DNA from: an uncultured Clostridia bacterium | Lineage (GTDB): Bacteria > Bacillota > Clostridia > TANB77 > CAG-508 | Direction: 5' to 3' | DNA: 64,000 nucleotides | Assembly: GCA_934168305.1 (NCBI GenBank) | Contig: CAKPNF010000002.1 | Location: forward strand, 32,308-96,307 | The notes under the pieces: model-generated | Database searches by the model: none | Told to the model about the DNA's origin: nothing | What the model saw: only the letters and a program-made list of their open reading frames with translations | In this document: positions 8,656 to 34,644 of the stretch, piece after piece | How positions within the stretch are numbered: the stretch's first letter is position 1 | Layout: every line of letters starts with the position of its first letter | Program-made: the position numbers and the translations under genes

Positions 8656-9657
8656 ATGGGAAATAAAGTAGATATATTACTAACAACATACAATACAAAA
8701 ATCGAATATTTAAAAATCCAATTAGACAGCATATTAAATCAAACATATAAAAATTTTACACTAATAATATCAGATGACTGTTCTTCAAACAAAGAAGTCA
8801 TAGATGTATTAAAAGAATATGAACAAAAAGATAATAGAATACAATTATACATTCAACCACAAAATTTAGGATACACAAAAAATTTTGAATTTGTGTTAAC
8901 AAAATCAACAGCTAACTACATAGCATTTAGTGACCATGATGATATATGGTATCCAAATAAAATAGAAGAAAGCCTAAAAATATTAAAAGAAAAAAAAGTT
9001 GATTTAGTTTATTGTGATGCAAAACAAATTGATGAAAATGGAAAAGTGTTACATGGAAGTTATTTAAGATATAAAAATATGCCTATATTAAATGAAAAAT
9101 ACAATAAAGAGATATTACCATTTTCAAGACATATAGCAATTGGATGTAGTCAATTATTTACAAAACAAGTAAAAGATTTAATGATACCATTTACAGAAAA
9201 TACAATGGCGCATGATTGGCATTCACTTTATATTGCAAGTAAATTGAAAGGAATTTATTGCATAGACAAGCCATTGTTTGAATATAGGCTTCATGGAAAC
9301 AACGCCTTTGGTGGTAGAAGCTTTAAACAAAATGTGAAAATATGGAAAGAAAGAAATGGAAATAGCTATAAATCTTATTTAAAATACAGGCATAGAGCCA
9401 TTACAGAAACATATTTAGCCGGAGTATTAATGTGTGAAGATTATAATTCTAAACTTCCAAAAAATGAAAAACAAGAAAAAACTGAGAAAAAAATAATTAA
9501 ATATTTTGAAAATTCTCAAAAATCAAAAATTTTATATTTTCCAATTCATAAATATTTTAAATATTTATATTTTAAAGGAATGAAAAAAAGAAAGTATAAG
9601 GAAATTATGATTTTACACTTTCCATTGCTAAGCTACATAGTTTTTTCAATTATATAA
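8656..9657 (+). CDS. glycosyltransferase family 2
   Basis: LLTTYNTKIEYLKIQLDSILNQTYKNFTLIISDDCSSN and a DHDD(I)W motif. GT2 rhamnosyltransferase-like. Confidence 0.8.
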   Translation: MGNKVDILLTTYNTKIEYLKIQLDSILNQTYKNFTLIISDDCSSNKEVIDVLKEYEQKDNRIQLYIQPQNLGYTKNFEFVLTKSTANYIAFSDHDDIWYPNKIEESLKILKEKKVDLVYCDAKQIDENGKVLHGSYLRYKNMPILNEKYNKEILPFSRHIAIGCSQLFTKQVKDLMIPFTENTMAHDWHSLYIASKLKGIYCIDKPLFEYRLHGNNAFGGRSFKQNVKIWKERNGNSYKSYLKYRHRAITETYLAGVLMCEDYNSKLPKNEKQEKTEKKIIKYFENSQKSKILYFPIHKYFKYLYFKGMKKRKYKEIMILHFPLLSYIVFSII

Positions 9658-9725
9658 AACATTTATACAATTTGAAACTTTTTTTAGTTTTAATTGTATC
9701 TATATATATAAAAGGAGGAAAACAA

Positions 9726-12143
9726 ATGAAAATTTTAAAAAATGAAATAGTATTAAAAATCTTTTGTACATGTACATTATTAATTGCATTAATATTAGGA
9801 TGTATGGGAAATCAATATGCAACTGAAACTGAAAAAAATACTCGACAAATAACAAAGCCAAGTGTAATGTATAACACACATATACAAAATGAAGGATGGG
9901 AAAAAGATTTTTCTAAAAAAGATGGTGAGATGTCAGGAACATCTGGAAAATCTTTAAGACTTGAAGCTATAAAAATAAAATTAGATAATCTAAAAGATGT
10001 TTCAATTAAATATAAAACACATGTCCAAAATATAGGTTGGCAAGACTGGAAATCTGATGGACAAATGTCAGGAACATCTGGAATGTCATATCGTTTAGAA
10101 GGAATAAGAATAAAACTAGAAAACACAGAAAGATATAGTGTTATGTACAGAGTCCATGTTCAAAACATTGGATGGCAAGACTGGAAATATGATGGAGAAA
10201 TGGCAGGAACAGAAGGACAATCTTTAAGATTAGAAGGAATTGAAATAAAAATCATTGATAAAGTAGAAAAAGGAAAAATAAATATAGATACTTTTATTTC
10301 AGATACATATTACGAAGAAAAAGAACTAAAAATAGATGGATGGAAGATGGCAAATATTGAAGAAACAAAAATAAAAGCAACAGTAGATAACAACGAAATC
10401 AAAGAAATAAATTACATCCAAAGACAAGATGTAATAAATTCAATAGAAGGATATGGAACTATAAAAGAAAACCCAAATCCAGGATTTAATTTTTATATAA
10501 AATTAAATGATTTAAAAGAAGGAAAACATACATTAAAAGTCTCTATAGTAAATAAAAGCGGAAAAGAAATACAAACATACACAAAAAAATTTACAATAGA
10601 TAGAAATATTCAATTAAAATATTGTACACATGTTCAAAGTATAGGATGGCAAGGTTGGAGAACTGGGCCTAATATGTCAGGAACATCTGGACAAGGATTA
10701 AGATTAGAAGCAATACAAATAAAAGCATTTAACTTACCTGAAGGAGTTACATTAAAATATCAAACACATATCCAAAATGAAGGATGGCAAAATTGGAAAA
10801 ATAACGGAGAAATGTCAGGAACATCAGGAAAAGGATTAAGACTTGAAGGTATAAAAATAAAATTAGAAGGTACATCAGATTATTCTGTAATGTATAGAAC
10901 ACATGTCCAAAGCATAGGATGGCAAGATTGGTGCTATGATGGAGAAACATCAGGAACATTTGGGGAAGAATTAAGATTAGAAGCAATTGAAATTAAAATA
11001 GTGCCAAAAATAAAAGATACAAAAACAAGAATTAATATTGACAATCCAACAGAGCAAATTGAAAAAACAAATCAAACAATAAAAGGTTGGGTAATGACAA
11101 CAGAAAAAGATACAAAAGTAAAAGTATTAATAGATGAAAAAGAAATAAATGAAAAAAACATAAAGAGAACGGAAAGAAAAGATGTAATAAATGCAATAAA
11201 GGGTTATGGTGATGAAGATACCTCTAATAAAAATCCAGGATTTGAAGCTAATATTGACTTTTCAAAATATTCTTTAGGAAAACATGAGATAAAAGTACAA
11301 GTACTAAGCCAAAACAATGTAATAAGTGAAACTACTAAAGATTTTACAATAAAAAATAAAATTGAATATAGTGAAGGAATATATGGAGTAACAGGACTAA
11401 AAGCAATAGGTGATAATAGAGGAAATAGTCTAAAATATTATAAATATGGAAGTGGACCAAATGTATTTTTTGCAACATTTGCAATACATGGGTTTGAAGA
11501 TATCTGGTCAAAAGACGGACAAGAATTAGTAACAATTGCTAATAATTTTTATCAACAATTAATAAATAATAAAGATTATGATTTAGCTGAAAAATGGACA
11601 ATATATATATTTCCAGGAATAAATTTAGATGGATTGAATTATGGTTATACAAATTATGGACCAGGAAGAACAACTTTATTTAGTCAGGCACCTAATAATA
11701 GAGGAATAGATTTAAATAGATGTTGGCAAATAGGAAGTGACTATACAAGATATACAGATAGCAGAAATTACAATGGAACATCTGGATTTCAAGCATATGA
11801 GGCACAATATTTAAGAGATTTCTTGTTAAAAAACAAATCACAAAGCGGTCAAACTATATTAGTAGACTTACATGGATGGACAACGCAAGTAATAGGAGAT
11901 AGTAAAATATGTTCATATTATTCAAAACAATTTCCTGAAAATGATAAATCAGCAGTAGGAAGATATGGAACTGGATACTTAATAAATTGGGCAAGAAGTT
12001 CATTAGGTTCAACATCAAAAGCAGCAAAATCAGCATTAATAGAATTACCAAGTGCAGGAATTAATGGACATCAATCTGTTATAGAACATAATTATTCTAA
12101 TAGATATATACAAGCAACATTAGATATGTTAAAAAATATTTAA
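9726..12143 (+). CDS. lipoprotein with six ChW repeats and a C-terminal M14 zinc-carboxypeptidase-like domain (putative cell-wall peptidase)
   Basis: SD aaaggagga. Lipobox LILGC. Six Y(R/K)THVQNIGWQDWK...GT(S/E)G...LRLEAI units (ChW). C-terminus HGFED (HxxE), GIDLNRCW and VDLHGW resemble the M14 zinc ligand motifs. Confidence 0.7.
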   Translation: MKILKNEIVLKIFCTCTLLIALILGCMGNQYATETEKNTRQITKPSVMYNTHIQNEGWEKDFSKKDGEMSGTSGKSLRLEAIKIKLDNLKDVSIKYKTHVQNIGWQDWKSDGQMSGTSGMSYRLEGIRIKLENTERYSVMYRVHVQNIGWQDWKYDGEMAGTEGQSLRLEGIEIKIIDKVEKGKINIDTFISDTYYEEKELKIDGWKMANIEETKIKATVDNNEIKEINYIQRQDVINSIEGYGTIKENPNPGFNFYIKLNDLKEGKHTLKVSIVNKSGKEIQTYTKKFTIDRNIQLKYCTHVQSIGWQGWRTGPNMSGTSGQGLRLEAIQIKAFNLPEGVTLKYQTHIQNEGWQNWKNNGEMSGTSGKGLRLEGIKIKLEGTSDYSVMYRTHVQSIGWQDWCYDGETSGTFGEELRLEAIEIKIVPKIKDTKTRINIDNPTEQIEKTNQTIKGWVMTTEKDTKVKVLIDEKEINEKNIKRTERKDVINAIKGYGDEDTSNKNPGFEANIDFSKYSLGKHEIKVQVLSQNNVISETTKDFTIKNKIEYSEGIYGVTGLKAIGDNRGNSLKYYKYGSGPNVFFATFAIHGFEDIWSKDGQELVTIANNFYQQLINNKDYDLAEKWTIYIFPGINLDGLNYGYTNYGPGRTTLFSQAPNNRGIDLNRCWQIGSDYTRYTDSRNYNGTSGFQAYEAQYLRDFLLKNKSQSGQTILVDLHGWTTQVIGDSKICSYYSKQFPENDKSAVGRYGTGYLINWARSSLGSTSKAAKSALIELPSAGINGHQSVIEHNYSNRYIQATLDMLKNI

Positions 12144-12155: not shown

Positions 12156-12906
12156 ATGAAAAAAAGAAAATTAATAGTTATAAGTGCATTAATAATTGCA
12201 TTAATTATACTAAGTTTTGTATTTTATATAATAATGTCAAAGAAAAACAACAGTACAAACAATAATGATGAGTTTGAATATACACAACTAGATAAAAATG
12301 AAATTCAATATCAAGAAAATACAACAATAGAGGATTTAAAAAAACAAACAAGTATAACTCGGAAACAATGATATATATGAAATACAAAAAGAATATGATG
12401 GAAGAAAAGTTTTGACTGTAAAAGCAAATGTGAAATATAAAGTAGCCCTTGCTGGAATGATAAAAAAAACACTACCTTCATTTGAAGAATTAGATAAAAT
12501 TCTAGAACAAAAATCACCTAAATATAGAGGAATATGGATTGAGCAAAATAGCAGAGATAAATTATTAAAATTATTTAACAGCAGTGAGAAAATTAATTCA
12601 AAATATTCAATTAATAACGAAGGATATTTAGAAATTGTAGAGAAAAATTTTCAAACTAATTATGACAAAAAAATAGAAAACGCTATAAATGGTGAAAAAC
12701 AGTATATATTAGATATATCCAGTGTTTGTTATATTGTCGATGATGTTACAGGTGAGATATTGGATTATAATTTTGAAAATATGGATAAATATCAGACATA
12801 TGAATATTTTAAGGATGGTGATAAAAATATTATCTTTATTAATCAAAATACTGATAATCAATTAGCAAGTTCTGAAATTATCGATAGTATCATAGAAATA
12901 TTTTAA
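12156..12906 (+). pseudogene. membrane-anchored hypothetical protein, frame interrupted by a single C insertion at ~12360 (actCGGAAAc)
   Basis: ORFs 12156..12371 (frame 0) and 12412..12906 (frame 1) join into one ~250 aa frame if the C at 12360 is removed. No stop codon occurs in the joined frame. Confidence 0.45.
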
Positions 12907-12932: not shown

Positions 12933-12933
12933 G

Positions 12934-13053: not shown

Positions 13054-13845
13054 ATGGAATTTATAAAAACATTATGGAAAAATAGGAAAATAGCATGGAA
13101 ATTAGGAAAGAGCGATTTTAAAAATAGATTTGCAAGTACAAGTTTAGGAAGTGTATGGGGGTTCTTACAACCATTTGTATTTATGATTATGTATGTAATA
13201 GTATTTCAATTCATATTTGGAATGGAAGGAGATAATGGCTCACCATATGTAGTATGGTTTTTACCAGGAATGTCAATATGGCAAGTTATAAATGATAGCA
13301 TAATGAGTTCAAGCATGTCAATAAGAAGTTACAGTTATTTAGTAAAAAAAGTAGTATTCCCAATAGATATAATTCCAGTAATAAGTATTATAGGAAGTAG
13401 TTTTGTATCAATATTTTTATTAGCAGTAGCAACAGTAATATGCATAGTATTTGGATACATGCCAAACATATTATCAGTTTTATATGTTATTATAGCACTA
13501 TATGCATTTATATTAGCATTTACAAGATTCACATCAGCACTTACAACACTTGTTCCAGACTTTTCTAATTTACTTGGAATATTAATGCAACTATTTTTCT
13601 GGGCAACACCAGTTGTATGGAGTCTAACAAGACTTGCAGGACATCAAAAAATATTAGAAATAATACAATGCATGCCATTTGCATATTTAGTAACAGCATT
13701 TAGAGAAGCATTTATGGGTGGAAATATAATTACTGCACACAATGGAATGTATACAATAATATTTTGGATAATTACAATAATAATGTTTATATGGGGAAAT
13801 CATATATTTAACAAAAACAAAAAAGATTTTGCAGATGTACTATAG
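13054..13845 (+). CDS. ABC-2 type polysaccharide/teichoic-acid export permease (TagG/Wzm-like)
   Basis: Six predicted TM helices. ABC-2 family pattern. Followed by the cognate ATPase. Confidence 0.75.
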   Translation: MEFIKTLWKNRKIAWKLGKSDFKNRFASTSLGSVWGFLQPFVFMIMYVIVFQFIFGMEGDNGSPYVVWFLPGMSIWQVINDSIMSSSMSIRSYSYLVKKVVFPIDIIPVISIIGSSFVSIFLLAVATVICIVFGYMPNILSVLYVIIALYAFILAFTRFTSALTTLVPDFSNLLGILMQLFFWATPVVWSLTRLAGHQKILEIIQCMPFAYLVTAFREAFMGGNIITAHNGMYTIIFWIITIIMFIWGNHIFNKNKKDFADVL

Positions 13846-13860: not shown

Positions 13861-14853
13861 ATGCAAGAAACAATAGATGTACTATTAGCAACATATAATG
13901 GAGAAAAATACATCAAAGAACAAATAGACAGCATATTAAACCAAACATATGAAAATATTAGATTAATAATATCAGATGATTGCTCAAAAGATAAAACACA
14001 AGAAATCTTAAAAGAATATGAGAAAAAAGATAATAGGATAGAATTGTATATACAAGAAAAAAATTTAGGTGTAGTAAAAAATATAGAATTTTTATTAAAG
14101 CAAGTAAAAAATAAATATTATATGTTATCAGACCAAGATGATATATGGCTCCCAGAAAAAATAGAAAAATCATTAGAAACATTATTAGAAAATAATGCTG
14201 ATTTAGTCTTTGGAGATTTAGAAGTTGTTAATCAAGACTTAAAAACAATGTATCCATCATTTGGAGATTTCATGTTATTAAATAAAAAAATACATAAATA
14301 CATAAACAGTAATATGTTAAATTATATATACAACTGTGTAACAGGATGCACAATACTTGCCAAAAAGGAAACAATACAAAAAATATTGCCATTACCTAAA
14401 AAATCCAAATATTTAATCCATGATCATTGGATTGGATTAATGACAAGTATATATGGAAAAGTTGTATATATGCCAGAAAAATATATAAAATATAGGCAAC
14501 ATGGAAACAATCAAGTAGGTACAGACAAAATATCACATGGATTTAAAAAATTAGATCAAGTAAGAGAATTATTTATAAATGTAAAATTAGGTGTATTTGG
14601 TACTTATGTAGAAAATAACGATAGATTTCCAGAAGATATGCAAAAACTAAATACAGAAATATATGAATATTTTAAAATGATACAAAACAAGAAAAACATC
14701 AATTTTAGAAAATGGAAAACTTTTCATAAATTATATAAAACAGAAAGTTTTAGTTATTATATATTGAACTTTATAATAATGAATATACCAATGCTTGGAA
14801 GACCATTATTCAATATTAGATATGCAATACTAAAACTTTTAGGAAAAAGATAA
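13861..14853 (+). CDS. glycosyltransferase family 2
   Basis: LLATYNGEKYIKEQIDSILNQTYENIRLIISDDCSKD. Paralog of 8656 and 30085. Confidence 0.8.
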   Translation: MQETIDVLLATYNGEKYIKEQIDSILNQTYENIRLIISDDCSKDKTQEILKEYEKKDNRIELYIQEKNLGVVKNIEFLLKQVKNKYYMLSDQDDIWLPEKIEKSLETLLENNADLVFGDLEVVNQDLKTMYPSFGDFMLLNKKIHKYINSNMLNYIYNCVTGCTILAKKETIQKILPLPKKSKYLIHDHWIGLMTSIYGKVVYMPEKYIKYRQHGNNQVGTDKISHGFKKLDQVRELFINVKLGVFGTYVENNDRFPEDMQKLNTEIYEYFKMIQNKKNINFRKWKTFHKLYKTESFSYYILNFIIMNIPMLGRPLFNIRYAILKLLGKR

Positions 14854-14867: not shown

Positions 14868-16217
14868 ATGGACAAAGAAAATCTAAATAACGAATGTGTA
14901 ATTGAAATAAAAAATTTAAAAAAAGATTATAAAATGTATAAAACAAAAAAGGCAAGACTATTAGAAGCGGTCTTACCTTTCTATGAAAATCATAGTACAT
15001 TTAGTGCTATAAATAATCTTGATTTGGAGATTCATAAAGGAGAAGTCCTAGGAATACTAGGAAAAAATGGAGCAGGAAAATCAACATTACTAAAAATGAT
15101 AACAGGTGTTGTAACTCCAACTTCTGGAACAATAAAAGTAAATGGAAAAATAAGTTCATTATTGGAATTAGGAGCAGCATTTAATCAAGAGCTAACAGGA
15201 GAAGAAAATATATATCAACATGGACAAGTTATGGGACTAACAAGAGAAGAAATAGAAGCAACAAAACAAGATATAATAGATTTTGCTGATATAGGAGACC
15301 ATCTATATCAACCAGTAAAAACATATTCTTCCGGAATGTTTGCAAGACTAGCATTTGCTTGTGCAATAAATGTAAATCCCGATATTCTAATAGTTGACGA
15401 GGTTTTATCAGTTGGAGATATAGCATTTCAATTAAAATGTTTTAAAAAATTCGAACAATTTAAAGAAAAAGGAAAAACAATTCTTTTTGTTACGCACAAT
15501 GTAACTGATGTAATAAGAAATTGTAATAGGGCAATAATTATAAATGAAGGCAAAAAAATATATGATGGTACAGTTAAAGATGGTGTGGAAAAATATAAAA
15601 AGATAATTGTTAAACAAGATAAAGACAAAGAACAAATAGATGAAAAAGAAAAAATAGAAAATGAACAAAATAAAAATTTTGGGTTAAACAAAGGAAATAT
15701 AATAAAAAGCACATGGAAAGAAAACTATGCAGTAAATCCTAATATTATAGAATATGGAAATGGAAAGGCAGATTTAATAGATTTCGGAATTTTTGATTTA
15801 AACGGAAACATTTTAACATCTATTCCAAATGATAAAGAAATTGTATTAAAATCAAAAGTTGTATTTAATGAAAAAGTCGTAGACCCAATTTTTACAATGA
15901 CAGTAAAAGACTTTAAAGGATTAGACATGATGGGAACAAATACGTTAATAGAAAAAATATTAACAGGAACATATGAAAAAGGAGATACAGCGATTGCTGA
16001 ATTTAGACAAAAAATTAGTCTATCTCCAAATAAATACACATTATCATTTAGTTGTACGCATTTTGATGGAAATGGGGAACTAGAAGTATTAAGCAGAAAA
16101 TATGATGCACTATTAGTTGAAATAACATCAAACAAAGACAGTGTTGGATTATATAGATTAGATTCTAAAATAAATGTTACAAAAATAGAGGGAGCTAAAG
16201 AAAATGAAAAAAAATAA
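14868..16217 (+). CDS. ABC transporter ATP-binding protein (TagH/Wzt-like) with extra C-terminal domain
   Basis: Walker A GKNGAGKST, signature YSSGMFARLAFA, Walker B ILIVDE. About 200 extra C-terminal residues, as in Wzt-type carbohydrate-binding extensions. Confidence 0.85.
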   Translation: MDKENLNNECVIEIKNLKKDYKMYKTKKARLLEAVLPFYENHSTFSAINNLDLEIHKGEVLGILGKNGAGKSTLLKMITGVVTPTSGTIKVNGKISSLLELGAAFNQELTGEENIYQHGQVMGLTREEIEATKQDIIDFADIGDHLYQPVKTYSSGMFARLAFACAINVNPDILIVDEVLSVGDIAFQLKCFKKFEQFKEKGKTILFVTHNVTDVIRNCNRAIIINEGKKIYDGTVKDGVEKYKKIIVKQDKDKEQIDEKEKIENEQNKNFGLNKGNIIKSTWKENYAVNPNIIEYGNGKADLIDFGIFDLNGNILTSIPNDKEIVLKSKVVFNEKVVDPIFTMTVKDFKGLDMMGTNTLIEKILTGTYEKGDTAIAEFRQKISLSPNKYTLSFSCTHFDGNGELEVLSRKYDALLVEITSNKDSVGLYRLDSKINVTKIEGAKENEKK

Positions 16218-17103: not shown

Positions 17104-17135
17104 TATATTAAATAAAAATAGTGAAAGGTAAAATT

Positions 17136-27649: not shown

Positions 27650-28011
27650 TGCAAACAACATTGAAAATAGCACTAATAATAATCTTATTAATATATCTTT
27701 TTTGTATATCAAAATCTGTAAAACATAAAAACATGAAAATGAATTATTTAATTTTTTGGTCTATTACAGGATTAATTTTGATAATTGCATTATTAACTCC
27801 AAATTTTGTAGAAAATGTGTCATGGAAACTTGGATTTGAATTACCAATAAATATGATATTTAGCGGAGCAATATTTGTTATATTGTATTTGGTATTTGAT
27901 TTAACAAAACAAATCACAAAGGAACAAAATAAAAATGTAATGTTAATACAAGAAGTTTCAATTTTAAAGAAAAAAATAGAAAAACTAGAAAATAAAATAG
28001 AAGGTGAATAA
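27649..28011 (+). CDS. DUF2304-like small membrane protein (accessory to GtrB-type GT2)
   Basis: Two TM helices plus a C-terminal coiled coil. Immediately follows the GT2 gene. Confidence 0.55.
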   Translation: MQTTLKIALIIILLIYLFCISKSVKHKNMKMNYLIFWSITGLILIIALLTPNFVENVSWKLGFELPINMIFSGAIFVILYLVFDLTKQITKEQNKNVMLIQEVSILKKKIEKLENKIEGE

Positions 28012-28801
28012 GTTGAAAGAATTTAAAAATCATACATTTATAATTTGTGCTTATAAAGAATCTACATATTTAGAGGAATGCGTTAAATCTTTATTAAATC
28101 AAAAAGTAAAAAGCAATATAATAATGACAACATCAACACCTAATCAATACATAAAAGCTGTATCAGATAAATATCAAATTCCATTATATATAAATAATGG
28201 AGAAAAAGGAATAGGACAAGATTGGAACTTCGGTATAAGCAACGCAAACACAGATTATGTAACAATAGCACATCAAGATGATATATATAAACCAGATTAT
28301 CTAGAAGAGATAGTAAAACAATTAGAAAAAAACAATAATTTTGTAATTGCATTTACAGATTATAGAGAAATAAAGAATGGAAAAGAAATTCCATTAACAT
28401 CAAATTTAAGAATTAAAAAGATACTACTATTTCCACTAAGGGTATTTAAAAAATCAAAATTTATAAGAAGAAGAGCTTTATCGTTAGGCTCAAGTATATG
28501 TTGTCCAAGTGTAACTATAAATAAAAAAATTACAGGAGAGAACCCATATAAAACGGAATTAAAGTGTGATTTAGACTGGGATACATGGGATAAAATGTGC
28601 GAATATAATGAAAACTTTTTATATATACCAAAAGAACTAATGCAACACAGAATTCATGAAGAATCTGAAACATCAAATTTAATACAAAACAACACAAGAT
28701 TAGAAGAAGATTTATTAATGTTAAAAAGATATTGGCCAAATCCAGTAGCAAAATTTATAATGAAATTTTATGGAAATGCTATAAAAACAAATAAAATTTA
28801 A
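28004..28801 (+). CDS. glycosyltransferase family 2-like
   Basis: FIICAYKESTYLEECVKSLLNQ...AHQDDIYKPDY. Confidence 0.6.
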   Translation: MNKLKEFKNHTFIICAYKESTYLEECVKSLLNQKVKSNIIMTTSTPNQYIKAVSDKYQIPLYINNGEKGIGQDWNFGISNANTDYVTIAHQDDIYKPDYLEEIVKQLEKNNNFVIAFTDYREIKNGKEIPLTSNLRIKKILLFPLRVFKKSKFIRRRALSLGSSICCPSVTINKKITGENPYKTELKCDLDWDTWDKMCEYNENFLYIPKELMQHRIHEESETSNLIQNNTRLEEDLLMLKRYWPNPVAKFIMKFYGNAIKTNKI

Positions 28802-28832: not shown

Positions 28833-30095
28833 ATGGAAAAAAGTATTCAATTTAGAAAAAATTTTATATGGAATATATTAGGTACAGGATTTAATTCTTT
28901 CAATTCATTATTTTTTATGATTATTGCAACAAGAATTAATGGGATTGATGAAGCAGGAATTTTCACTCTTGCTTTTTCAACAGCCTGTATCTTATATTCA
29001 TTTGGAATATATGTAGGTAGAATATATCAAGTTACAGAACTAGATAAAGAAATTACAGATAAAGATTTTATAATAAATAGACTAATAACAACATTATTAA
29101 TGCCAGTATTGTTATTATTTTTCTGTATTTTTAGAGGATATAATGCAGAAAAAACAATAATATTTTTACTTTTAACTCTATATAAAGCATTAGATGCATT
29201 TAGTGATGTTATATATGGTATATTACAGAAAAATGATGAATTACATATCGCAGGAAAATCATTATTTATGAAATCATTATTTTCTATTATTATATTTTTA
29301 ATTGTAGATATAATTATAAAAAATATGACAATAGCAATAATATCAATGATAATTGTATGTATATTAATTTTTATTATATATGATTATAGGAAAGCAAAAC
29401 AACTAATCAATTTTAAAGTTAAAGTTAATCTTAAAAATGTATTTTCAATATTCAAAAAAGGATTTTTTGTCTTTGCAATTTCATTTTTAAGTATGTATGT
29501 TTTGAACTCTCCAAAATACGCAATAGATACATATTTACAAGAAAACTATCAAACAATATTTGGAATAATAGTTATGCCAGCTACAGTAATAGGACTAATT
29601 TCTACTTTTTTAATACATCCATATTTGAATGATATACTAGAATTATATGAAAAGGGAAAAGAAAAAGAATTTAATAAAATACTATTAAAAATAATAATTT
29701 GTATTACAATAATAGGAATTATATCAACAATTATAGCTTACCTAATTGGAACTCAAGTTTTAGGATTAATTTATGGAATTGACTTAAGTGCACACAAAAT
29801 AGAACTAGCAGTTATAATTATATCGGCAACAATATATACGATGGGAACAATATGTTCTTCATTCTTAACAGTTGTTAGAGAAACATTTTCTCAATTTATA
29901 ATTTATGTTATTGTTTCTGTATTTGCACTTTTTGTATCAAACATACTAGTAAGTATATACAAAATAGAGGGGGCAGTAATAGCTTATTTTCTTATAATGC
30001 TAACACAATTCTTATTATATATAATTTATACAAAAATAAGAATGAAACAAATATTTTCTAGAAAAATTAAGGAGAATGAAATAAATGAACAATAA
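28833..30095 (+). CDS. Wzx-like oligosaccharide flippase / polysaccharide biosynthesis protein (MOP superfamily)
   Basis: About 12 TM helices. N-terminal FIWNILGTGFNSFNSLFFMIIATRINGIDEAGIF is typical of polysaccharide biosynthesis (Wzx) proteins. Confidence 0.65.
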   Translation: MEKSIQFRKNFIWNILGTGFNSFNSLFFMIIATRINGIDEAGIFTLAFSTACILYSFGIYVGRIYQVTELDKEITDKDFIINRLITTLLMPVLLLFFCIFRGYNAEKTIIFLLLTLYKALDAFSDVIYGILQKNDELHIAGKSLFMKSLFSIIIFLIVDIIIKNMTIAIISMIIVCILIFIIYDYRKAKQLINFKVKVNLKNVFSIFKKGFFVFAISFLSMYVLNSPKYAIDTYLQENYQTIFGIIVMPATVIGLISTFLIHPYLNDILELYEKGKEKEFNKILLKIIICITIIGIISTIIAYLIGTQVLGLIYGIDLSAHKIELAVIIISATIYTMGTICSSFLTVVRETFSQFIIYVIVSVFALFVSNILVSIYKIEGAVIAYFLIMLTQFLLYIIYTKIRMKQIFSRKIKENEINEQ

Positions 30096-30996
30096 AAAAG
30101 TCGCTATACTAATGTCCACATATAATGGTGAAAAATACATAAAAGAACAATTAGATAGTTTATTAAATCAAAGTTATAAAAATATAGAAATTTATATCAG
30201 AGATGATGGATCAAAAGATAAAACTATTAATATAGTTAAAGAATATGAAAATAAGTACAATAACGTAATTTTTAATCAAGGGGAAAATGTAGGATATATT
30301 AATAGTTTTTTTAATCTATTAAAATTATGCAACGATGCCGATTATTATGCATATTGTGACCAAGATGATATATGGATGGAAGAAAAAATTGAAAGAGCTG
30401 TACAAAAATTAGATGAAAACAGCTGTGATAAACCGATTTTATACTTTTCAAACTTGGATTTTTATGATGGAGAAATGAATTATTTAGCATCAGCACCTAA
30501 AGAGAAAAAATATAATTTTAGAAATTCATTAGTTGAATGTATAACACAAGGGATGACGATGGTTATAAATAAAAAAGCAAGAGATACAATTATAGATAAC
30601 ATTCCTAGTGTATGTTTAGGACATGACTGGTGGACATATATGATTTGTAGTGGATTTGGAAAAATTATTTATGATAGTGAATCTCTAGTAAAGTATAGAA
30701 GACATAATAAAAGTGTTACTTTGGAAGGAGAAAGCCAGTTTAAATTATTAATTTGGAGAATAAAAAAATTTCTATTAGGTGATTCTTTAAAACAAATAAA
30801 AGTCCAAATTAAAGAATATGATAAATTATATTCAGACAAATTGAACAACGAAGATAGAAAATTACTTAAATTATTTACAAAAGATAAATACAATTTTTTA
30901 ATAGCATTAAGAAAAGCTTTTTATCCTAAGAGATATAGAAGAAAAATAACAGATGAAATAAGTGTTAGAATATTATTTATTTTTGGAAAATTATAA
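30085..30996 (+). CDS. glycosyltransferase family 2
   Basis: AILMSTYNGEKYIKEQLDSLLNQSYKNIEIYIRDDGSKDKT, CDQDDIW. Confidence 0.8.
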   Translation: MNNKKVAILMSTYNGEKYIKEQLDSLLNQSYKNIEIYIRDDGSKDKTINIVKEYENKYNNVIFNQGENVGYINSFFNLLKLCNDADYYAYCDQDDIWMEEKIERAVQKLDENSCDKPILYFSNLDFYDGEMNYLASAPKEKKYNFRNSLVECITQGMTMVINKKARDTIIDNIPSVCLGHDWWTYMICSGFGKIIYDSESLVKYRRHNKSVTLEGESQFKLLIWRIKKFLLGDSLKQIKVQIKEYDKLYSDKLNNEDRKLLKLFTKDKYNFLIALRKAFYPKRYRRKITDEISVRILFIFGKL

Positions 30997-31097: not shown

Positions 31098-33224
31098 TTG
31101 AAAAAAGTCACAAATTTAGTAATATTATTATTAATATCACTGCTATTAATAAATGTTTTTCTGCCTATTAATTTAGCAGATTCTGAAAATGCAAATCAAG
31201 AAAATAATAACTCTATATTATATAATAACATAGAGCTAGAAGAGAATAAAACATTGTTAAGTAATAATGAGGTTAATGATGTTATTGAAAAAGAAGAAAC
31301 AAATATAGAAGAAAATGAGAAAATTGAAGAGAAACAAGAAAATAAAGTTCTTATAGAAAATACGATTCCCAATGAATTAAATGAACAAACAACTATTGAA
31401 AATGATGATGTAATGCCATTAAATGATACTACTGGTTTAGCAGTACAATATAAAACACATGTACAAAATATAGGATGGCAGGATTATGTACAAGATGGGA
31501 ATATATCAGGAACATCTGGTAAAGGGTATAGATTAGAAGGAATTAATATTCAATTATTAAATTCAGAAAAAAATTTAAACATAAAATATCAAGTACATGT
31601 ACAAAATATAGGATGGCAAGGTTGGAAAAAAAATGGGGAAGTAGCAGGTACTTCAGGACAAAGCCTAAGGTTAGAAGCTATAAGAATTTGCTTAGATAGT
31701 TCTGACGATTATTCTATACAATATAGAGTACACGTACAAAATATGGGATGGCAAGATTGGAAAATCGATGGAGAAATGGCAGGTACATCTGGACAAAATC
31801 TGAGATTAGAAGCAATACAAATAAAAATTATTCCAAAGCAAAAAAAAGGAAGATTATGTATAGATACTCCATCTAATGGAAATACATATTATTCATCATC
31901 TGACATAAGAGTTCAAGGTTGGAAAATGTCAAATATTTCTAATACATTTATAAAAGCATATATAGATAATATAGAAATTGATTCCAAGACAATAACTTAC
32001 TATAATAGAACTGATGTAACAAATGCAATTTTAGATTGTGGAACAGAATCTCAAAATCCAAAAGCAGGTTTTTATTTTAGTTTTAATAGTAATAATATTT
32101 CAAGCGGACAACATACTTTAAAGATAGAATTATATTCAGAAAAAGATATTATTAGTGCAGAAAGTACAAATTTTTATATAGATAAAAACTTACATATAAA
32201 TTATAGAACTCACGTCCAACATGATGGATGGCAGGGATATGTAAAAGATGGTCAAATGTCAGGAACTTCAGGAAAATCTTATAGAGTAGAAGCTTTAAAT
32301 ATAAGTTTAATAAATGCACCAGAAAATGCAAAAATATTATATAGAACTCATGTCCAAAATATTGGATGGCAAAAATGGAAAGAAAATGGTGAAATGGCAG
32401 GGACAGAGGGAAAAGCATATAGAATAGAAGCTATAGAAATAATTCTAGAAAATATGGATAAATATACAGTTGAATATCAAGTTCATATACAAGATAAAGG
32501 ATGGACAGACTGGTATATGGATGGAGAAACGGCCGGAACTGTAGGACAAGAAAGAAGAATTGAAGCCATAAGAATAAGATTAGTTGCAAAAAAAGAAAAG
32601 AGATTATATAAAGGAATTGATGTAAGTAAATTCAATGGTAGCGTAAACTGGGGCTTTGTAAAAAGAGATGGAATAGATTTTGCATTTATAAGAGCCGGTT
32701 TTAGAGGATATGGTTCAAGAGGAACACTTAATGAAGATCCATGTTTTAGATTGAACATACAAGGTGCTAAACAAGCAGGAATTCCGGTTGGAGTTTATTT
32801 TATAACACAAGCTATTACGGCTGAAGAAGCAATTCAAGAAGCAAACTGGGTAGTAGAAAGAGTAAAAGATTATAATATAGAATATCCAATTGCAATTGAT
32901 ATAGAAGCGCCAGGCTTAGAAAAACCTGATGATATACCAAGAACACAAAATTTAGACAAAAATACCAGAACATATCTAGCAAAAGTATTTTGTCAAACAA
33001 TACAAAAAGCAGGGTATACACCAATTATATATTGCAATATAGATTGGGCATATAATTATTTAAATATGTCAGAATTATCAGAATATGACACATGGATAGC
33101 AAGTTACAGAGATAATAATCCAGGATATAATGGAAAATACTCTATTTGGCAATACACAAGTAAAGGACAAGTAAATGGTGTATTAGGATATGTGGATAGA
33201 AACATATGTTATAAAAAATACTAA
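31098..33224 (+). CDS. secreted autolysin: six ChW repeats plus C-terminal GH25 lysozyme (muramidase) domain
   Basis: TTG start behind aaaggagg. Signal peptide ...NLA/DS and an acidic E-rich linker. Six YxxHVQNIGWQ ChW units. C-terminus GIDVSKFNGSVNWGFVKRDGIDFAFIRAGFRGYGS...GIPVGVYFI is a GH25 signature. Confidence 0.8.
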   Translation: MKKVTNLVILLLISLLLINVFLPINLADSENANQENNNSILYNNIELEENKTLLSNNEVNDVIEKEETNIEENEKIEEKQENKVLIENTIPNELNEQTTIENDDVMPLNDTTGLAVQYKTHVQNIGWQDYVQDGNISGTSGKGYRLEGINIQLLNSEKNLNIKYQVHVQNIGWQGWKKNGEVAGTSGQSLRLEAIRICLDSSDDYSIQYRVHVQNMGWQDWKIDGEMAGTSGQNLRLEAIQIKIIPKQKKGRLCIDTPSNGNTYYSSSDIRVQGWKMSNISNTFIKAYIDNIEIDSKTITYYNRTDVTNAILDCGTESQNPKAGFYFSFNSNNISSGQHTLKIELYSEKDIISAESTNFYIDKNLHINYRTHVQHDGWQGYVKDGQMSGTSGKSYRVEALNISLINAPENAKILYRTHVQNIGWQKWKENGEMAGTEGKAYRIEAIEIILENMDKYTVEYQVHIQDKGWTDWYMDGETAGTVGQERRIEAIRIRLVAKKEKRLYKGIDVSKFNGSVNWGFVKRDGIDFAFIRAGFRGYGSRGTLNEDPCFRLNIQGAKQAGIPVGVYFITQAITAEEAIQEANWVVERVKDYNIEYPIAIDIEAPGLEKPDDIPRTQNLDKNTRTYLAKVFCQTIQKAGYTPIIYCNIDWAYNYLNMSELSEYDTWIASYRDNNPGYNGKYSIWQYTSKGQVNGVLGYVDRNICYKKY

Positions 33225-33254
33225 TTATATTAAATGAAATATGAGGAGAAAAAG

Positions 33255-33701
33255 ATGGAAAAAATAAAAGATTTATACTTAAAATATAAAGAAATAATAA
33301 ATTATCTAATAGTTGGAATACTAACAACAATAGTAGCTTTAGCAGTATATTATATATCAGTTTTTACTTTCTTGAACCCAGAAAACAGTGTACAATTACA
33401 AATTGCAAATATATTATCTTGGATAGCTGGTGTTACATTTGCATATTTTACAAACAGAAAATTCGTATTTGAAAGTAAAGAGAAAAACAAAATCAAAGAA
33501 GCATCAAAATTCATATTAGCAAGAGTTATTACACTTTTTATGGATATGATTATTATGTGGTTAGGTGTAACAATATTACATGGTAATGATAAAATAATGA
33601 AATTGATTTCTCAGGTAGTAATAACAATATCAAATTATATTTTTAGTAAGATTTTTGTATTTACAAGGGCAACCGAGGAATATTCTAAGGAGGAAAAATA
33701 A
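33255..33701 (+). CDS. GtrA family flippase-like protein
   Basis: SD gaggag. Four TM helices. LIVGILTTIVALAVYY...NRKFVFESK pattern. Confidence 0.65.
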   Translation: MEKIKDLYLKYKEIINYLIVGILTTIVALAVYYISVFTFLNPENSVQLQIANILSWIAGVTFAYFTNRKFVFESKEKNKIKEASKFILARVITLFMDMIIMWLGVTILHGNDKIMKLISQVVITISNYIFSKIFVFTRATEEYSKEEK

Positions 33702-33702
33702 A

Positions 33703-34644
33703 ATGGAAAAGAAAAAAGTAACGCTTGTTATACCAATGTATTATGAAGAAAAAGTAGCAGAAGAATGCTATAAAAGAGTAAAAGAAAACTTAAAAAAATT
33801 AGAAAATTATGACCATGAAATAATATTTGTAAATGACGGAAGTAAAGACAAAACATTAGAGATACTAGAAAATATTGCTAAAAATGATACAAGTGTAAAA
33901 ATAATATCATTTTCAAGAAACTTTGGACACCAAGCAGCAGTAACTGCAGGACTTCAATATGTAACTGGAGATGCAATAGTAATAATGGATGCTGACCTTC
34001 AAGATCCACCAGAATTAATACCAGATATGTTAAAATTATGGGAAGAAGGAAATGAAGTAATATACGGAAAAAGAAAATCAAGAGAAGGAGAAAGTGCTTT
34101 CAAATTATTTACAGCAAAAATGTTTTATAAAACTCTTAATGCTCTATCAGATGTTGAAATACCAAGAGATACAGGAGATTTTAGATTAGTAGATAGAAAA
34201 GTAGTTGATACAATAAATATTTTACCAGAACATAATAAATTTTTAAGAGGACTATTTAGTTGGGTTGGCTATAAGCAAGCTCCATTTGAATATGAAAGAA
34301 AAGAAAGATTTGCAGGAGAGACAAAATATCCTTTGAAAAAAATGCTAAAATTAGCATCAGATGGTATTATAAGTTTTTCTACAAAACCATTAAAATTAGT
34401 TGGAGCATTAGGAATAATATCAATAATAATATCAGTTATATTATTAATTTATGCATTAGTATCATATGCATGTAAATTAAATAATTTATCTGCTGGATGG
34501 ACATCTATTATGGTTGCCATTACATTTTTTGCAGGAGTTCAACTATTATCAATTTGGGTTATGTCAGAATATGTAGGTAGAATTTATGACGAAACAAAAC
34601 AAAGACCACAATATATAATAGATAAAAAAATCAATATAGAATAA
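33703..34644 (+). CDS. GT2 polyprenyl-phosphate sugar synthase (GtrB/ArnC-like) with two C-terminal TM helices
   Basis: SD aaggagg precedes the ATG at 33703. VTLVIPMYYEEK...FVNDGSKDKT, MDADLQDPP, and two C-terminal TM helices. Confidence 0.8.
   Translation: MEKKKVTLVIPMYYEEKVAEECYKRVKENLKKLENYDHEIIFVNDGSKDKTLEILENIAKNDTSVKIISFSRNFGHQAAVTAGLQYVTGDAIVIMDADLQDPPELIPDMLKLWEEGNEVIYGKRKSREGESAFKLFTAKMFYKTLNALSDVEIPRDTGDFRLVDRKVVDTINILPEHNKFLRGLFSWVGYKQAPFEYERKERFAGETKYPLKKMLKLASDGIISFSTKPLKLVGALGIISIIISVILLIYALVSYACKLNNLSAGWTSIMVAITFFAGVQLLSIWVMSEYVGRIYDETKQRPQYIIDKKINIE

What the first reader, a model, noticed from the sequence alone, without database searches (positions are those of the whole stretch)
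8656..34644. About 26 kb cell-wall glycopolymer locus bracketed by ChW-repeat hydrolases: candidate synthesis and decoration pathway for the ChW ligand
A near-contiguous + strand block encodes about nine GT2 enzymes (8656, 13861, 18707 two-domain, 25983, 26927, 28004, 30085, 33703) and an ABC-2 exporter pair (13054 and 14868, the latter with a Wzt-like C-terminal extension). It also encodes a Wzx-like flippase (28833), GtrA (33255), three GtrB-type polyprenyl-phosphate sugar synthases (two with DUF2304/TM partners), and three consecutive large polytopic membrane proteins (20628, 22333, 24076) that fit GT-C extracytoplasmic glycosyltransferases. Two secreted enzymes are embedded: a lipoprotein M14 peptidase (9726) and a GH25 muramidase (31098), each carrying six ChW repeats. 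The ligand of the clostridial ChW domain is not established. Co-localisation suggests this locus makes the anionic or decorated wall polymer that anchors ChW proteins, with three GtrABC-like modules adding distinct side-chain sugars outside the membrane.
Basis: partly seen in the sequence, partly recalled or inferred. Interest (0 to 1): 0.55.

Follow-up and report, generated by a model that had tools for sequence, protein, structure and literature searches.

The report
Wall-polysaccharide locus carrying ChW autolysins
This is a well-formed gene cluster for making, exporting and sugar-decorating a cell-wall polysaccharide in an uncultured gut Clostridia bacterium. Two wall-cutting enzymes with ChW repeats sit inside it, so it is a reasonable but unproven place to look for what ChW repeats bind.

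Summary
The gene content is real. Window 8656-34644 is a single + strand block between two hairpins. It holds eight GT2 genes (nine domains), Wzm/Wzt with a Wzt_C domain, and three polyprenyl-phosphate-sugar-synthase-type GT2s with DUF2304 and GtrA partners. It also holds a Wzx-like protein, three polytopic membrane proteins and two 6xChW hydrolases (M14, GH25).

The same locus type occurs in 67 species-representative genomes, all uncultured Clostridia. Its core is conserved and its decoration region is hypervariable. The M14 and GH25 genes recur at fixed positions, but ChW is only one of three alternative non-catalytic modules: ChW in 9 loci, ricin-type lectin in 2, Ig-like or none recognised in 10. 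Both enzymes of one locus always carry the same module. ChW-GH25 always lies next to the Wzx-like cassette.

This fits polymer-directed targeting, most likely to a variable side chain, but does not prove it. Nothing indicates an anionic polymer. ChW also occurs far outside this lineage.

Verdict: a new variant of a known kind (ABC-dependent wall polysaccharide with GacIJKL/Wps-type decoration). The ChW-ligand idea is partly supported.

The parts
8554..8587 (+). Terminator-like hairpin marking the upstream boundary of the locus
   Evidence: 14-pair stem followed by a T-run, between the DUF4870 gene (ends 8318) and the first GT2.
8656..9657 (+). Cytoplasmic GT2 (GT2_a), part of the conserved core
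   Evidence: Pfam Glycos_transf_2, 92 bits. No TM helix. Orthologues at the same position in most related loci.
9726..12143 (+). Secreted, probably lipid-anchored peptidase: [3 ChW + Ig-like]x2 + M14 domain
   Evidence: Pfam ChW 350 bits in 6 stretches, and Peptidase_M14. The N-terminus ...LIALILGC fits a lipobox. HxxE and a later H zinc ligands are present in the sequence. Orthologues in 12 related loci carry ChW, ricin or Ig-like modules.
12156..12906 (+). Conserved partner gene of the M14 peptidase (TM-anchored, about 245 aa in relatives), split here by a frameshift into 12156-12371 and 12412-12906
   Evidence: Three-frame translation and intact orthologues in L032, L039 and L044. The junction is identical in 5 independent assemblies. 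The gene always follows the M14 gene.
13054..13845 (+). ABC-2 permease (Wzm-like)
   Evidence: Pfam ABC2_membrane. Weak NCBIfam match to galactan Wzm/RfbD. 6 TM helices.
13861..14853 (+). Cytoplasmic GT2 (GT2_b), conserved core
   Evidence: Pfam, 112 bits. Conserved in related loci.
14868..16217 (+). ABC ATPase with a C-terminal Wzt_C carbohydrate-binding domain (Wzt)
   Evidence: Pfam ABC_tran 87 bits and Wzt_C 101 bits at residues 295-431. NCBIfam TagH-type N-terminal half, below cut-off.
16204..17103 (+). Single-pass membrane-anchored metallo-beta-lactamase-fold hydrolase
   Evidence: Pfam Lactamase_B. The HPHVDH motif is present in the sequence. Nearest PDB and NCBIfam matches are the ComEC MBL domain. 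One N-terminal TM helix. Present next to Wzt in most related loci.
17121..18686 (+). WbdD-like candidate chain terminator: degenerate SAM-methyltransferase domain, kinase-like middle domain, C-terminal coiled coil (likely ATG start at 17136)
18707..20605 (+). Two-domain GT2 (candidate polymerising glycosyltransferase of the backbone)
   Evidence: Pfam: two GT2 stretches at 102-260 and 354-578. The most strongly conserved gene across related loci, 800-1300 bits.
20628..22349 (+). GT-C-fold polytopic glycosyltransferase (no Pfam family)
   Evidence: AF2 pLDDT 95, pTM 0.93. Top Foldseek PDB hits are AglB, ArnT, Pmt1/2/4, STT3 and EmbA/B/C. D43 is invariant and D44 nearly invariant in the first loop. 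One homologue is fused to GtrA. Paired with a GtrB_1 orthologue in L025.
22330..24057 (+). DUF2142 polytopic membrane protein (GT-C clan), in the GacL-equivalent position
   Evidence: Pfam DUF2142, 155 bits. About 12 TM helices. Strong orthologues follow the two-domain GT2 and precede GacI-like/DUF2304 in 10 or more loci, alternating with DUF7657.
24076..25956 (+). Polytopic membrane protein of a large uncharacterised family (DUF8201 / LIC_10190-like); GT-C or polymerase, undetermined
   Evidence: 1501 homologues. Acidic and aromatic loop residues D98 (nearly invariant), D102, Y106 and H107 (invariant). Only 17% hhalign probability against the 20628 family, and no PDB hit. Weak NCBIfam LIC_10190 match.
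25983..26909 (+). GtrB-type polyprenyl-phosphate hexose synthase (GT2 + 2 C-terminal TM helices)
   Evidence: Pfam GT2. NCBIfam AglJ 235 bits and Dol-P-hexose transferase 91 bits. TM helices at 230-248 and 271-289.
26927..28011 (+). GacI/GacJ-like pair: soluble GT2 (26927-27649) plus a 3-TM DUF2304 activator (27649-28011)
   Evidence: Pfam GT2 and DUF2304. NCBIfam PpgS/AglJ similarity. Present in nearly all related loci. GacJ = DUF2304 and PpgS/Rv3632 are precedents (10.1101/180810).
28004..28801 (+). Cytoplasmic GT2 (GT2_c), variable-region side-chain transferase
   Evidence: Pfam. Present in a subset of related loci.
28833..30095 (+). Wzx-like (MOP-family) polytopic protein, candidate flippase
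   Evidence: 9 of 12 orthologues hit PF01943, best E 5e-6; the window protein scores E 0.16. At least 9 TM helices. Adjacent to every ChW-GH25 gene found.
30085..30996 (+). Cytoplasmic GT2 (GT2_d), travels with the Wzx-like gene
   Evidence: Pfam. GT2_d, Wzx-like and ChW-GH25 lie together in L024, L028, L036, L037, L041, L057 and L062.
31098..33224 (+). Secreted muramidase: signal peptide, E/N-rich linker, 3 ChW + Ig-like + 3 ChW, GH25 domain
   Evidence: Pfam ChW 346 bits in 6 stretches, and Glyco_hydro_25 121 bits. Orthologues in 13 related loci carry ChW, ricin or Ig-like modules.
33234..34644 (+). GtrA-family protein (33234-33701) plus GtrB-type Und-P-sugar synthase (33703-34644)
   Evidence: Pfam GtrA_DPMS_TM and GT2. 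NCBIfam PgfS 344 bits (cut-off 500) and ArnC 164 bits. 2 C-terminal TM helices.
34652..34683 (.). 13-pair hairpin marking the downstream boundary
   Evidence: Followed by a MurD-like ligase gene at 34962.

Best explanation
The block is the cell-wall polysaccharide (CWPS) locus of an uncultured, low-GC gut Clostridia lineage.

**Inferred pathway.**
1. A backbone is built in the cytoplasm on an undecaprenyl-linked primer. The priming enzyme is encoded elsewhere. GT2_a, GT2_b and the two-domain GT2 do the building.
2. The 17121 protein stops growth. It has the WbdD architecture of methyltransferase, kinase-like domain and coiled coil. In this species the SAM site is degenerate, so the cap would more likely be a phosphate than a methyl-phosphate.
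3. The Wzt_C domain of the ABC ATPase recognises the capped end, and Wzm/Wzt exports the chain.
4. Outside the membrane the chain is decorated. Three Und-P-sugar synthases supply donors: the 25983 GtrB type, 26927 with its DUF2304 activator, and 33703 with GtrA. The Wzx-like protein and GtrA flip them. The GT-C proteins 20628 and 22330 transfer them. 24076 is either a third transferase or a polymerase.
5. GT2_c and GT2_d may extend the 26927 product into a short oligosaccharide before flipping, as in the lactococcal Wps route.
6. An LCP enzyme encoded elsewhere would attach the product to peptidoglycan.

**Hydrolases.** The M14 peptidase and GH25 muramidase are autolysins carried as cargo of the locus. 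Their ChW triplets most plausibly hold them on the wall by binding this polymer. The likelier target is its variable, Wzx-dependent side chain, not the conserved backbone.

**Shown versus inferred.** Shown: domain content, folds, conserved synteny, and module swapping. Inferred: every enzymatic step, the cap, peptidoglycan linkage, and ChW binding.
For: **Domain content.**

**Conserved locus.** The core order GT2_a-[M14-partner]-Wzm-GT2_b-Wzt-MBL-terminator-GT2x2-[DUF2142 or DUF7657]-GacI-DUF2304 is found in 67 species genomes. The 3' region is O-antigen-like in its variability, with heptose genes, RmlD, DUF6077 and GtrB cassettes.

**Terminator.**
- WbdD 4azs is the only listed hit spanning both domains (469 columns, E 8e-6).
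- D-x4-N and D residues with kinase catalytic-loop spacing are invariant.
- Domain order and boundaries equal those of WbdD: MTase 1-210, kinase 211-459, coiled coil (PMC3482155).
- The gene lies two genes downstream of a Wzt that carries Wzt_C.
- metK is adjacent in 12 related loci.

**GT-C.**

**Wzx-like.**

**GacI/J/K/L precedent.** 10.1101/180810.

**Hydrolase link.**
- M14 and/or GH25 genes sit at fixed positions in 21 of 67 loci.
- Modules are concordant within a locus in 5 of 5 cases: ChW/ChW three times, ricin/ricin once, Ig/Ig once.
- ChW-GH25 is adjacent to the Wzx-like gene in 8 of 8 loci, against 0 of 6 for non-ChW GH25 loci.
- Nine of 28 long metagenome ChW loci again have a poly420-type Wzx within 10 kb.

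**Precedent for the logic.** CWB2-PSII.
Against: - The window holds no primer transferase, LCP ligase or nucleotide-sugar gene. Peptidoglycan linkage and sugar identity are therefore unknown.
- The kinase-like assignment has no sequence-level support. The Foldseek TM-scores are low (0.21-0.24).
- The SAM motif is degenerate, so the protein may be only a scaffold.
- 24076 is unassigned.
- ChW association: 58 of 67 related loci have no ChW nearby. L019 and L042 carry ChW-M14 with no Wzx-like gene in the covered range.
- The ChW/Wzx correlation may be inherited linkage. It rests on about 4 versus 4 independent lineages.
- About half of the long ChW loci from metagenomes have no glycan genes.
- ChW occurs in taxa with unrelated walls.
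- A lactococcal ChW-like anchor did not fractionate with the lysozyme-released wall fraction (PMC6700490).
Confidence: 0.6

Rival explanations
1. ChW repeats bind peptidoglycan itself, or another ubiquitous envelope component, and not the product of this locus. The two autolysin genes sit in the locus only because wall-polymer insertion and wall remodelling are co-regulated, or through inherited linkage.
For: - ChW triplet proteins occur in Bacillaceae, Selenomonadaceae (diderm), Actinoplanes and Acetobacterium. These taxa share little beyond peptidoglycan (prior knowledge).
- Three of three stand-alone ChW genes, and about half of the long metagenome ChW loci, have no glycan genes nearby.
- The conserved core locus works with ricin or Ig-like modules in other species.
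- Both catalytic domains act on peptidoglycan.
Against: - The module type switches in concert in both enzymes of a locus, and one alternative is a ricin-type lectin. Both are easier to explain if the modules read a species-specific glycan.
- ChW-GH25 is adjacent to the Wzx-like cassette in 8 of 8 loci.
- Reviews list no demonstrated peptidoglycan binding for ChW.
Confidence: 0.3
2. One or more of the GtrB/GT-C modules decorate a different acceptor from the ABC-exported polymer. Lipoteichoic acid (CsbB/YfhO or GtlA/GtlB type) or surface proteins (Pgf type) are candidates. The locus would then be a composite of independent glycosylation systems.
For: - The 33703 protein scores best against the S. 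mutans protein-glycosylation enzyme PgfS, at 344 bits.
- The GtrA/GtrB pair lies beyond the GH25 gene at the far 3' end and occurs as a mobile cassette in only some related loci.
- Multi-component systems are known to act on LTA and WTA as well (PMC8035078, listed).
Against: - The PgfS score is below the family cut-off of 500.
- Synthases and polytopic proteins are matched 3:3 within one hairpin-bounded block.
- GtrB_1 travels with the 20628-type GT-C inside the locus in L025.
- There are no Ser/Thr-rich acceptor proteins or LtaS-type genes in the window.
Confidence: 0.2
3. The product is not a peptidoglycan-linked wall polymer. It would be a capsule/exopolysaccharide or an S-layer or protein O-glycan assembled by the same ABC-transporter-dependent, capped-chain route.
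For: - No LCP ligase gene lies in the locus or window.
- Capped-chain recognition by Wzt_C is described for O-antigens and, according to PMC3482155, for O-linked glycans of Gram-positives.
Against: - No S-layer, oligosaccharyltransferase or capsule-regulator gene is nearby.
- Embedded peptidoglycan hydrolases and GacIJKL-type decoration are typical of wall-polysaccharide loci.
- The locus is conserved in every related genome found, like an essential wall component.
Confidence: 0.12

Closest known systems
Streptococcal and lactococcal rhamnose-rich wall polysaccharide loci (S. pyogenes gacA-L; S. thermophilus/L. lactis rgp/cwps 'dual-chain' loci)
   Same: - An ABC-2 exporter for a cytoplasmically built backbone.
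- A GacI-type GT2 with a DUF2304 (GacJ/WpsB) partner.
- A Wzx-like flippase and GT-C/DUF2142 polytopic transferases acting outside the membrane.
- A conserved backbone region plus a hypervariable side-chain region (10.1101/180810; PMC9746298).
   Different: - No rmlABCD genes and no Rgp-type rhamnosyltransferases were identified here. RmlD is present in only some related loci.
- Wzt carries a Wzt_C domain, and a WbdD-like protein is present. mention neither for those systems; RgpE is only hypothesised to cap the chain.
- Three synthase/GT-C pairs lie in one locus.
- Peptidoglycan hydrolase genes are embedded.
- The host is an uncultured Clostridia lineage.
E. coli O9a O-antigen termination-export coupling (WbdD + Wzm/Wzt with a C-terminal carbohydrate-binding module)
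   Same: - Methyltransferase, kinase-like and coiled-coil domains in the same order and with similar boundaries.
- A polymerising multi-domain GT.
- An ABC ATPase with Wzt_C (PMC3482155).
   Different: - Gram-positive host.
- No detectable sequence similarity to WbdD.
- Shorter coiled coil (about 65 aa against about 250).
- The SAM-binding motif is degenerate in this species.
- The product goes to the wall and not to lipid A-core.
C. difficile CWB2 proteins and the adjacent anionic-polymer (PSII) locus
   Same: - Wall proteins, including hydrolases, that carry tandem triplets of a non-covalent anchoring repeat.
- These proteins are encoded next to the locus that makes the secondary wall polymer they bind (PMC4973711).
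   Different: - A different repeat family (ChW against CWB2).
- A different export route (ABC-2/Wzt against an MviN-type flippase).
- Binding is demonstrated for CWB2-PSII and not tested for ChW.
- Only two ChW genes are involved, and ChW is replaceable by other modules in sister species.
Three-component (GtrA/GtrB/GtrC-type) extracytoplasmic glycosylation systems
   Same: - A GtrB-type GT2 with two C-terminal TM helices.
- A GtrA-family small membrane protein.
- GT-C transferases (PMC8035078, listed).
   Different: - Only one of the three synthases has a GtrA neighbour.
- One uses a DUF2304 partner and a Wzx-like protein instead.
- The pairing between individual synthases and GT-C proteins is inferred from synteny only.

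Membership tests
ABC-transporter-dependent glycan pathway with capped-chain recognition (O9a type) | ABC-2 permease plus an ATPase carrying a C-terminal Wzt_C carbohydrate-binding domain | tested here: met
   Pfam ABC2_membrane 45.7 bits; ABC_tran 87 bits; Wzt_C 101 bits against a cut-off of 30.4.
ABC-transporter-dependent glycan pathway with capped-chain recognition (O9a type) | Dedicated terminator of WbdD architecture (methyltransferase and/or kinase plus coiled coil) | tested here: inconclusive
- A coiled coil is predicted.
- The Foldseek alignment to WbdD 4azs covers 469 columns at E 8e-6, but TM is only 0.21-0.24.
- Kinase-like D-x4-N...D residues are invariant.
- There is no Pfam or PDB sequence hit for the middle domain.
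- SAM motif I is degenerate.
ABC-transporter-dependent glycan pathway with capped-chain recognition (O9a type) | Polyprenyl-phosphate priming transferase (WecA/TagO type) available | tested here: not met
   None in the locus or in the 64-kb window. It is presumably encoded elsewhere; the whole genome was not available.
GacI/J/K/L-type side-chain addition | GT2 Und-P-sugar synthase with a DUF2304 small membrane partner | tested here: met
   26927 (GT2, no TM helix, PpgS/AglJ-like) is immediately followed by 27649 (DUF2304, 78 bits, 3 TM helices).
GacI/J/K/L-type side-chain addition | Wzx-family flippase | tested here: inconclusive
   The window protein scores only E 0.16 against PF01943. 9 of 12 orthologues hit it, best E 5e-6.
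GacI/J/K/L-type side-chain addition | GT-C-fold extracytoplasmic transferase | tested here: met
   - 22330 = DUF2142 (GT-C clan membership is prior knowledge).
- The 20628 model (pLDDT 95) matches AglB, ArnT, PMT, STT3 and Emb.
- 24076 is not resolved.
Rhamnose-rich CWPS (Rgp/GAC/Epa) | dTDP-rhamnose synthesis genes and a rhamnan backbone | tested here: not met
   No Rml genes in the window. RmlD is found in only 8 related loci. The backbone sugar is unknown.
Wall teichoic acid (TagGH-dependent) | CDP-glycerol/ribitol phosphotransferases (TagB/TagF type) and TagD/TarIJ | tested here: not met
   No such Pfam domain in any locus gene. The TagH-model hits to Wzt (224-233 bits) are below the cut-offs of 320 and 538.
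Repeat-module / secondary-wall-polymer anchoring pair (CWB2-PSII, SLH-pyruvylated SCWP type) | Anchoring repeats in tandem triplets on secreted wall enzymes | tested here: met
   Each protein has 2 x 3 ChW repeats. Both N-termini look like a lipobox/signal peptide on direct reading of the sequence.
Repeat-module / secondary-wall-polymer anchoring pair (CWB2-PSII, SLH-pyruvylated SCWP type) | Genetic linkage of the module with the polymer locus across genomes | tested here: inconclusive
   - ChW is present in 9 of 67 related loci, and other modules sit at the same positions.
- The ChW-GH25/Wzx-like adjacency holds in 8 of 8 loci but is phylogenetically clustered.
- 14 of 31 long ChW loci have 2 or more glycan genes, with no proper background control.
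Repeat-module / secondary-wall-polymer anchoring pair (CWB2-PSII, SLH-pyruvylated SCWP type) | Direct binding of the module to the polymer | not testable with these tools
   No ChW structure in the PDB by sequence. No ligand reported.

The most novel reading that the evidence does not exclude
ChW triplets are lectin-like modules that read a species-variable, Wzx-dependent side chain of an ABC-exported wall polysaccharide. They would be interchangeable in evolution with ricin-type lectin and Ig-like modules on the same two autolysins. In that case this locus family, with its natural module swaps across 67 species, would be a ready-made comparative system for identifying the long-unknown ChW ligand. 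It would also extend the O9a-type 'cap, measure, export' logic (WbdD-like terminator plus Wzt_C) to a Gram-positive wall polymer.
Probability: 0.3. Interest if true: 0.6.

Novelty: new variant of a known kind. Interest (0 to 1): 0.45.

Why it matters
- ChW is a widespread wall-protein and endolysin module. In the reviews and searches available here, its ligand has never been identified.
- This lineage keeps the same two autolysins at the same places in a conserved polysaccharide locus and exchanges only their targeting modules and the side-chain genes. That gives concrete, testable pairings of module type against side-chain cassette.
- The locus also suggests that chain-length control by a WbdD-like terminator coupled to a Wzt carbohydrate-binding domain, established for Gram-negative O-antigens, operates on a wall polymer in abundant but uncultured gut Clostridia.
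- Apart from these points the cluster is an ordinary, if unusually elaborate, wall-polysaccharide locus.

Tried and rejected
2. **24076 as GT-C.** There was no PDB profile hit, and hhalign gave only 17% probability against the 20628 family. It is left undetermined.
3. **ChW structure or ligand.** No PDB sequence match. The literature searches returned no paper that identifies a ligand.
4. **ChW in cultured phages.** Only two unannotated faecal phage contigs matched, so host-range reasoning was not possible.
5. **Teichoic-acid and rhamnan membership.** Both rejected, because the defining genes are absent.
6. **'Anionic polymer'.** Rejected for lack of any phosphotransferase, pyruvyltransferase or uronic-acid gene.
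7. **Genome-wide ChW presence or absence in the 67 MAGs.**
8. **Promoter-like hits.** They were not above the shuffled expectation, so no operon structure is claimed.
9. **metK against an intact SAM motif.** My regular expression failed on the more distant sequences. Only the count of metK-adjacent loci is used.

Full report
**Observation**

The window is about 26% G+C and nearly all of its genes are on the + strand.

- GT2 domains at 8656, 13861, 18707 (two domains), 25983, 26927, 28004, 30085 and 33703.
- An ABC-2 permease at 13054.
- An ABC ATPase at 14868 with a Wzt_C domain (101 bits).
- DUF2142 at 22330, DUF2304 at 27649 and GtrA at 33234.
- Two secreted enzymes, each with six ChW repeats (350 and 346 bits): an M14 peptidase at 9726-12143 and a GH25 muramidase at 31098-33224.

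The repeats are arranged as triplets separated by an Ig-like domain.

A simple hydropathy count gives two C-terminal TM helices for the 25983 and 33703 proteins, which is the GtrB type. The 26927 protein has none, its DUF2304 neighbour has three, and the three large proteins have 7 to 12.

Terminator-like hairpins at 8554-8587 and 34652-34683 coincide with the stated limits.

The flanks are housekeeping genes. Upstream are spoIIIAH, pta/ptb and two acetate/butyrate kinases. Downstream are a MurD-like ligase, radA, disA, pyrG, recJ, relA, hisS and fab genes. The window contains no priming phosphoglycosyltransferase, LCP ligase, nucleotide-sugar gene or any enzyme that would add an anionic group.

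1. *A WbdD-like protein at 17121-18686.*
   - It belongs to a family of at least 587 proteins, nearly all unnamed metagenome or MAG sequences. Its other members carry clear SAM-methyltransferase domains.
   - An AlphaFold model (pLDDT 85) shows a methyltransferase fold, a middle alpha/beta domain and a C-terminal helix of about 65 residues.
   - Among the listed Foldseek hits, only E. coli WbdD (4azs) aligns across both domains: 469 columns, E 8e-6, low TM-score.
   - K255, D366-x4-N371 and D383 are invariant in 55 sequences. Their spacing is that of a kinase catalytic loop and DFG aspartate.
   - WbdD is built in the same order: MTase 1-210, kinase 211-459, coiled coil. It caps the O9a chain so that the Wzt carbohydrate-binding module can export it (PMC3482155).
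   - There is no sequence-level support for the kinase domain, so I rate this assignment at about 0.65.
   - In the window's clade the motif I glycines are lost (EINSNSKQ against EIGAxxGE) and about 22 residues are deleted. Twelve related loci have metK directly next to the gene.
2. *A membrane-anchored hydrolase at 16204-17103.* It has a single TM helix, a metallo-beta-lactamase fold and an intact HxHxDH motif. Its nearest matches are the ComEC MBL domain. It is conserved beside Wzt in most related loci.
3. *A frameshifted partner gene.* The gene after the M14 peptidase is a TM-anchored protein of about 245 aa in relatives. Here a frameshift splits it into 12156-12371 and 12412-12906. The junction is identical in five independent metagenome assemblies.

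**The three polytopic proteins and the flippase**

- 22330 is DUF2142 (155 bits).
- 20628 has no Pfam family. With 55 homologues it folds at pLDDT 95, and its best PDB matches are all GT-C enzymes: AglB, ArnT, Pmt1/2/4, STT3, EmbA/B/C, AftD and ALG12. D43 is invariant and D44 nearly invariant in its first loop. One homologue is fused to GtrA.
- 24076 belongs to a large family (1501 hits) with conserved acidic and aromatic loop residues. It could not be tied to GT-C: hhalign gave 17% and there was no PDB hit.
- 28833 is Wzx-like at family level only: 9 of 12 orthologues hit PF01943, best E 5e-6.

**Comparative evidence**

The exact Wzt protein is found on gut and bovine metagenome contigs carrying the same locus.

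A scan of one genome per species with the terminator family returned 67 loci. Almost all are uncultured Clostridia MAGs; two are labelled Lachnospiraceae and Bacillota. The closest is Clostridium sp. CAG:389 at 69% identity.

Mapping the window proteins onto these loci gives a conserved core: GT2_a-[M14-partner]-Wzm-GT2_b-Wzt-MBL-terminator-two-domain GT2-[DUF2142 or DUF7657/DUF7654]-GacI-like-DUF2304. The core is followed by a hypervariable region that holds, in different species, Wzx-like/GT2 cassettes, GtrB/GtrA pairs, heptose genes (HldE, GmhA, GT9), RmlD or DUF6077.

This is the conserved-backbone plus variable-side-chain pattern of streptococcal and lactococcal wall-polysaccharide loci. 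The GacI/GacJ(DUF2304)/GacK(Wzx)/GacL(GT-C) logic is established there (10.1101/180810; PMC9746298).

**The hydrolases and ChW**

- M14 and/or GH25 genes occur at fixed positions in 21 of the 67 loci.
- ChW is present in only 9 loci.
- The orthologous enzymes otherwise carry ricin-type beta-trefoil lectin repeats (both enzymes of L007, and the GH25 of L025) or only Ig-like domains (L032, L039, L044, L047, L053, L058, L066, L073).
- Whenever both enzymes are present in one locus they carry the same module type: ChW/ChW in the window, L024 and L028; ricin/ricin in L007; Ig/Ig in L044.
- Every ChW-GH25 gene (8 of 8 loci) lies directly beside the Wzx-like gene, usually with GT2_d. None of six loci with a non-ChW GH25 has that cassette.
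- These loci collapse to about four lineages on each side. Two ChW-M14 loci (L019, L042) show no Wzx-like gene in the stretch held.
- A metagenome scan for ChW returned 80 loci. Together with the 3 stand-alone look-ups, 31 of the ChW loci are long (12 kb or more). Fourteen of these have at least two glycan genes within 10 kb. Nine of the 28 that came from the scan have a poly420-type Wzx gene within that distance.
- Several of these loci are the same lineage, the hits are biased towards relatives, and about half have no glycan gene at all.
- Small stand-alone ChW proteins in Ectobacillus, a Selenomonadaceae MAG and another contig are not near glycan genes.

**Interpretation**

I am fairly confident (about 0.8) that the block is an ABC-transporter-dependent wall-polysaccharide locus with multi-component extracytoplasmic decoration. 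I am moderately confident (about 0.65) that chain termination and export are coupled as in O9a.

The claim that the locus makes the ChW ligand is plausible. It has a precise precedent in C. difficile, where CWB2 triplets bind PSII made by the adjacent AP locus (PMC4973711). The concerted module swaps and the lectin alternative argue that these modules read something species-specific.

The conserved backbone cannot be that ligand, because it persists where ChW is absent. If the ligand comes from this locus, it is a variable side chain.

The main rival is that ChW binds peptidoglycan or another common component. The very wide taxonomic spread of ChW favours this reading. A lactococcal ChW-like anchor also did not behave like a wall-fraction protein (PMC6700490).

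I put ChW binding this polymer at about 0.35, and peptidoglycan or another component at about 0.3 or more. The rest is unknown.

'Anionic' is unsupported.

**Novelty and score**

Each component class is known. Four things are new:
- the combination in an uncultured Clostridia lineage;
- a WbdD-like terminator with Wzt_C in a Gram-positive wall locus;
- three synthase/GT-C pairs in one locus;
- autolysin cargo with evolutionarily swapped targeting modules.

I call this a new variant of a known kind, interest 0.45. The ChW question becomes more testable but is not answered.

Noticed in passing
window 12156-12906: The conserved TM-anchored partner gene of the M14 peptidase (about 245 aa in L032, L039 and L044) is split by a frameshift into 71-aa and 164-aa ORFs. 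The junction is identical in five independent metagenome assemblies, so it is fixed in this species and is not a sequencing error.
   Followed up: yes
window 17121-18686; A1 columns about 70-125: The methyltransferase domain of the WbdD-like protein has lost the motif I glycines and about 22 residues in this clade. Relatives with an intact-looking motif often have metK immediately adjacent (12 loci have metK).
   Followed up: partly
window 16204-17103: A single-pass membrane-anchored MBL-fold hydrolase with an intact HxHxDH motif, closest to the ComEC nuclease domain. It is conserved beside Wzt in most of the 67 related loci. Its role in glycan assembly is unknown (cap removal?).
   Followed up: partly
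L007 1-5576; L025 16133-18682: The M14 and GH25 orthologues in these loci carry long arrays of ricin-type beta-trefoil lectin repeats in place of ChW.
   Followed up: yes
L032, L034, L039, L043, L046, L048, L050, L051, L068 (variable regions): Heptose-pathway genes (HldE-like kinase/adenylyltransferase, GmhA-like SIS isomerase, GT9 heptosyltransferase) sit inside the variable region of this Gram-positive wall-polysaccharide locus type.
   Followed up: partly
e.g. L057 13495-15600 (26 loci): A membrane protein of about 700 aa with DUF7657 + DUF7654 occupies the same position as DUF2142 (after the two-domain GT2, before GacI-like/DUF2304). It alternates with DUF2142 between species and is probably an alternative extracytoplasmic transferase.
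   Followed up: partly
window 43534-44900: radA appears split into two ORFs in different frames: 43534-43953 (zinc ribbon plus the start of the ATPase) and 44040-44900 (Lon-like C-terminal part).
   Followed up: no
window 3586-7214: A phosphate acetyl/butyryl-transferase gene followed by two tandem acetate/butyrate-kinase paralogues, immediately upstream of the locus. The same flank is present in the metagenome contigs L001-L005.
   Followed up: no
L100, L102, L141, L149, L151 (metagenome loci): Tandem arrays of three or four large ChW proteins (up to 12 repeats each) with no glycan genes nearby. L142 and L154 show runs of short ChW fragments that look like decayed or misassembled arrays.
   Followed up: no
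window 36418-37071 and 38976-41514: Four consecutive-to-nearby ORFs (217, 131, 341 and 369 aa) downstream of the locus have no significant Pfam match.
   Followed up: no
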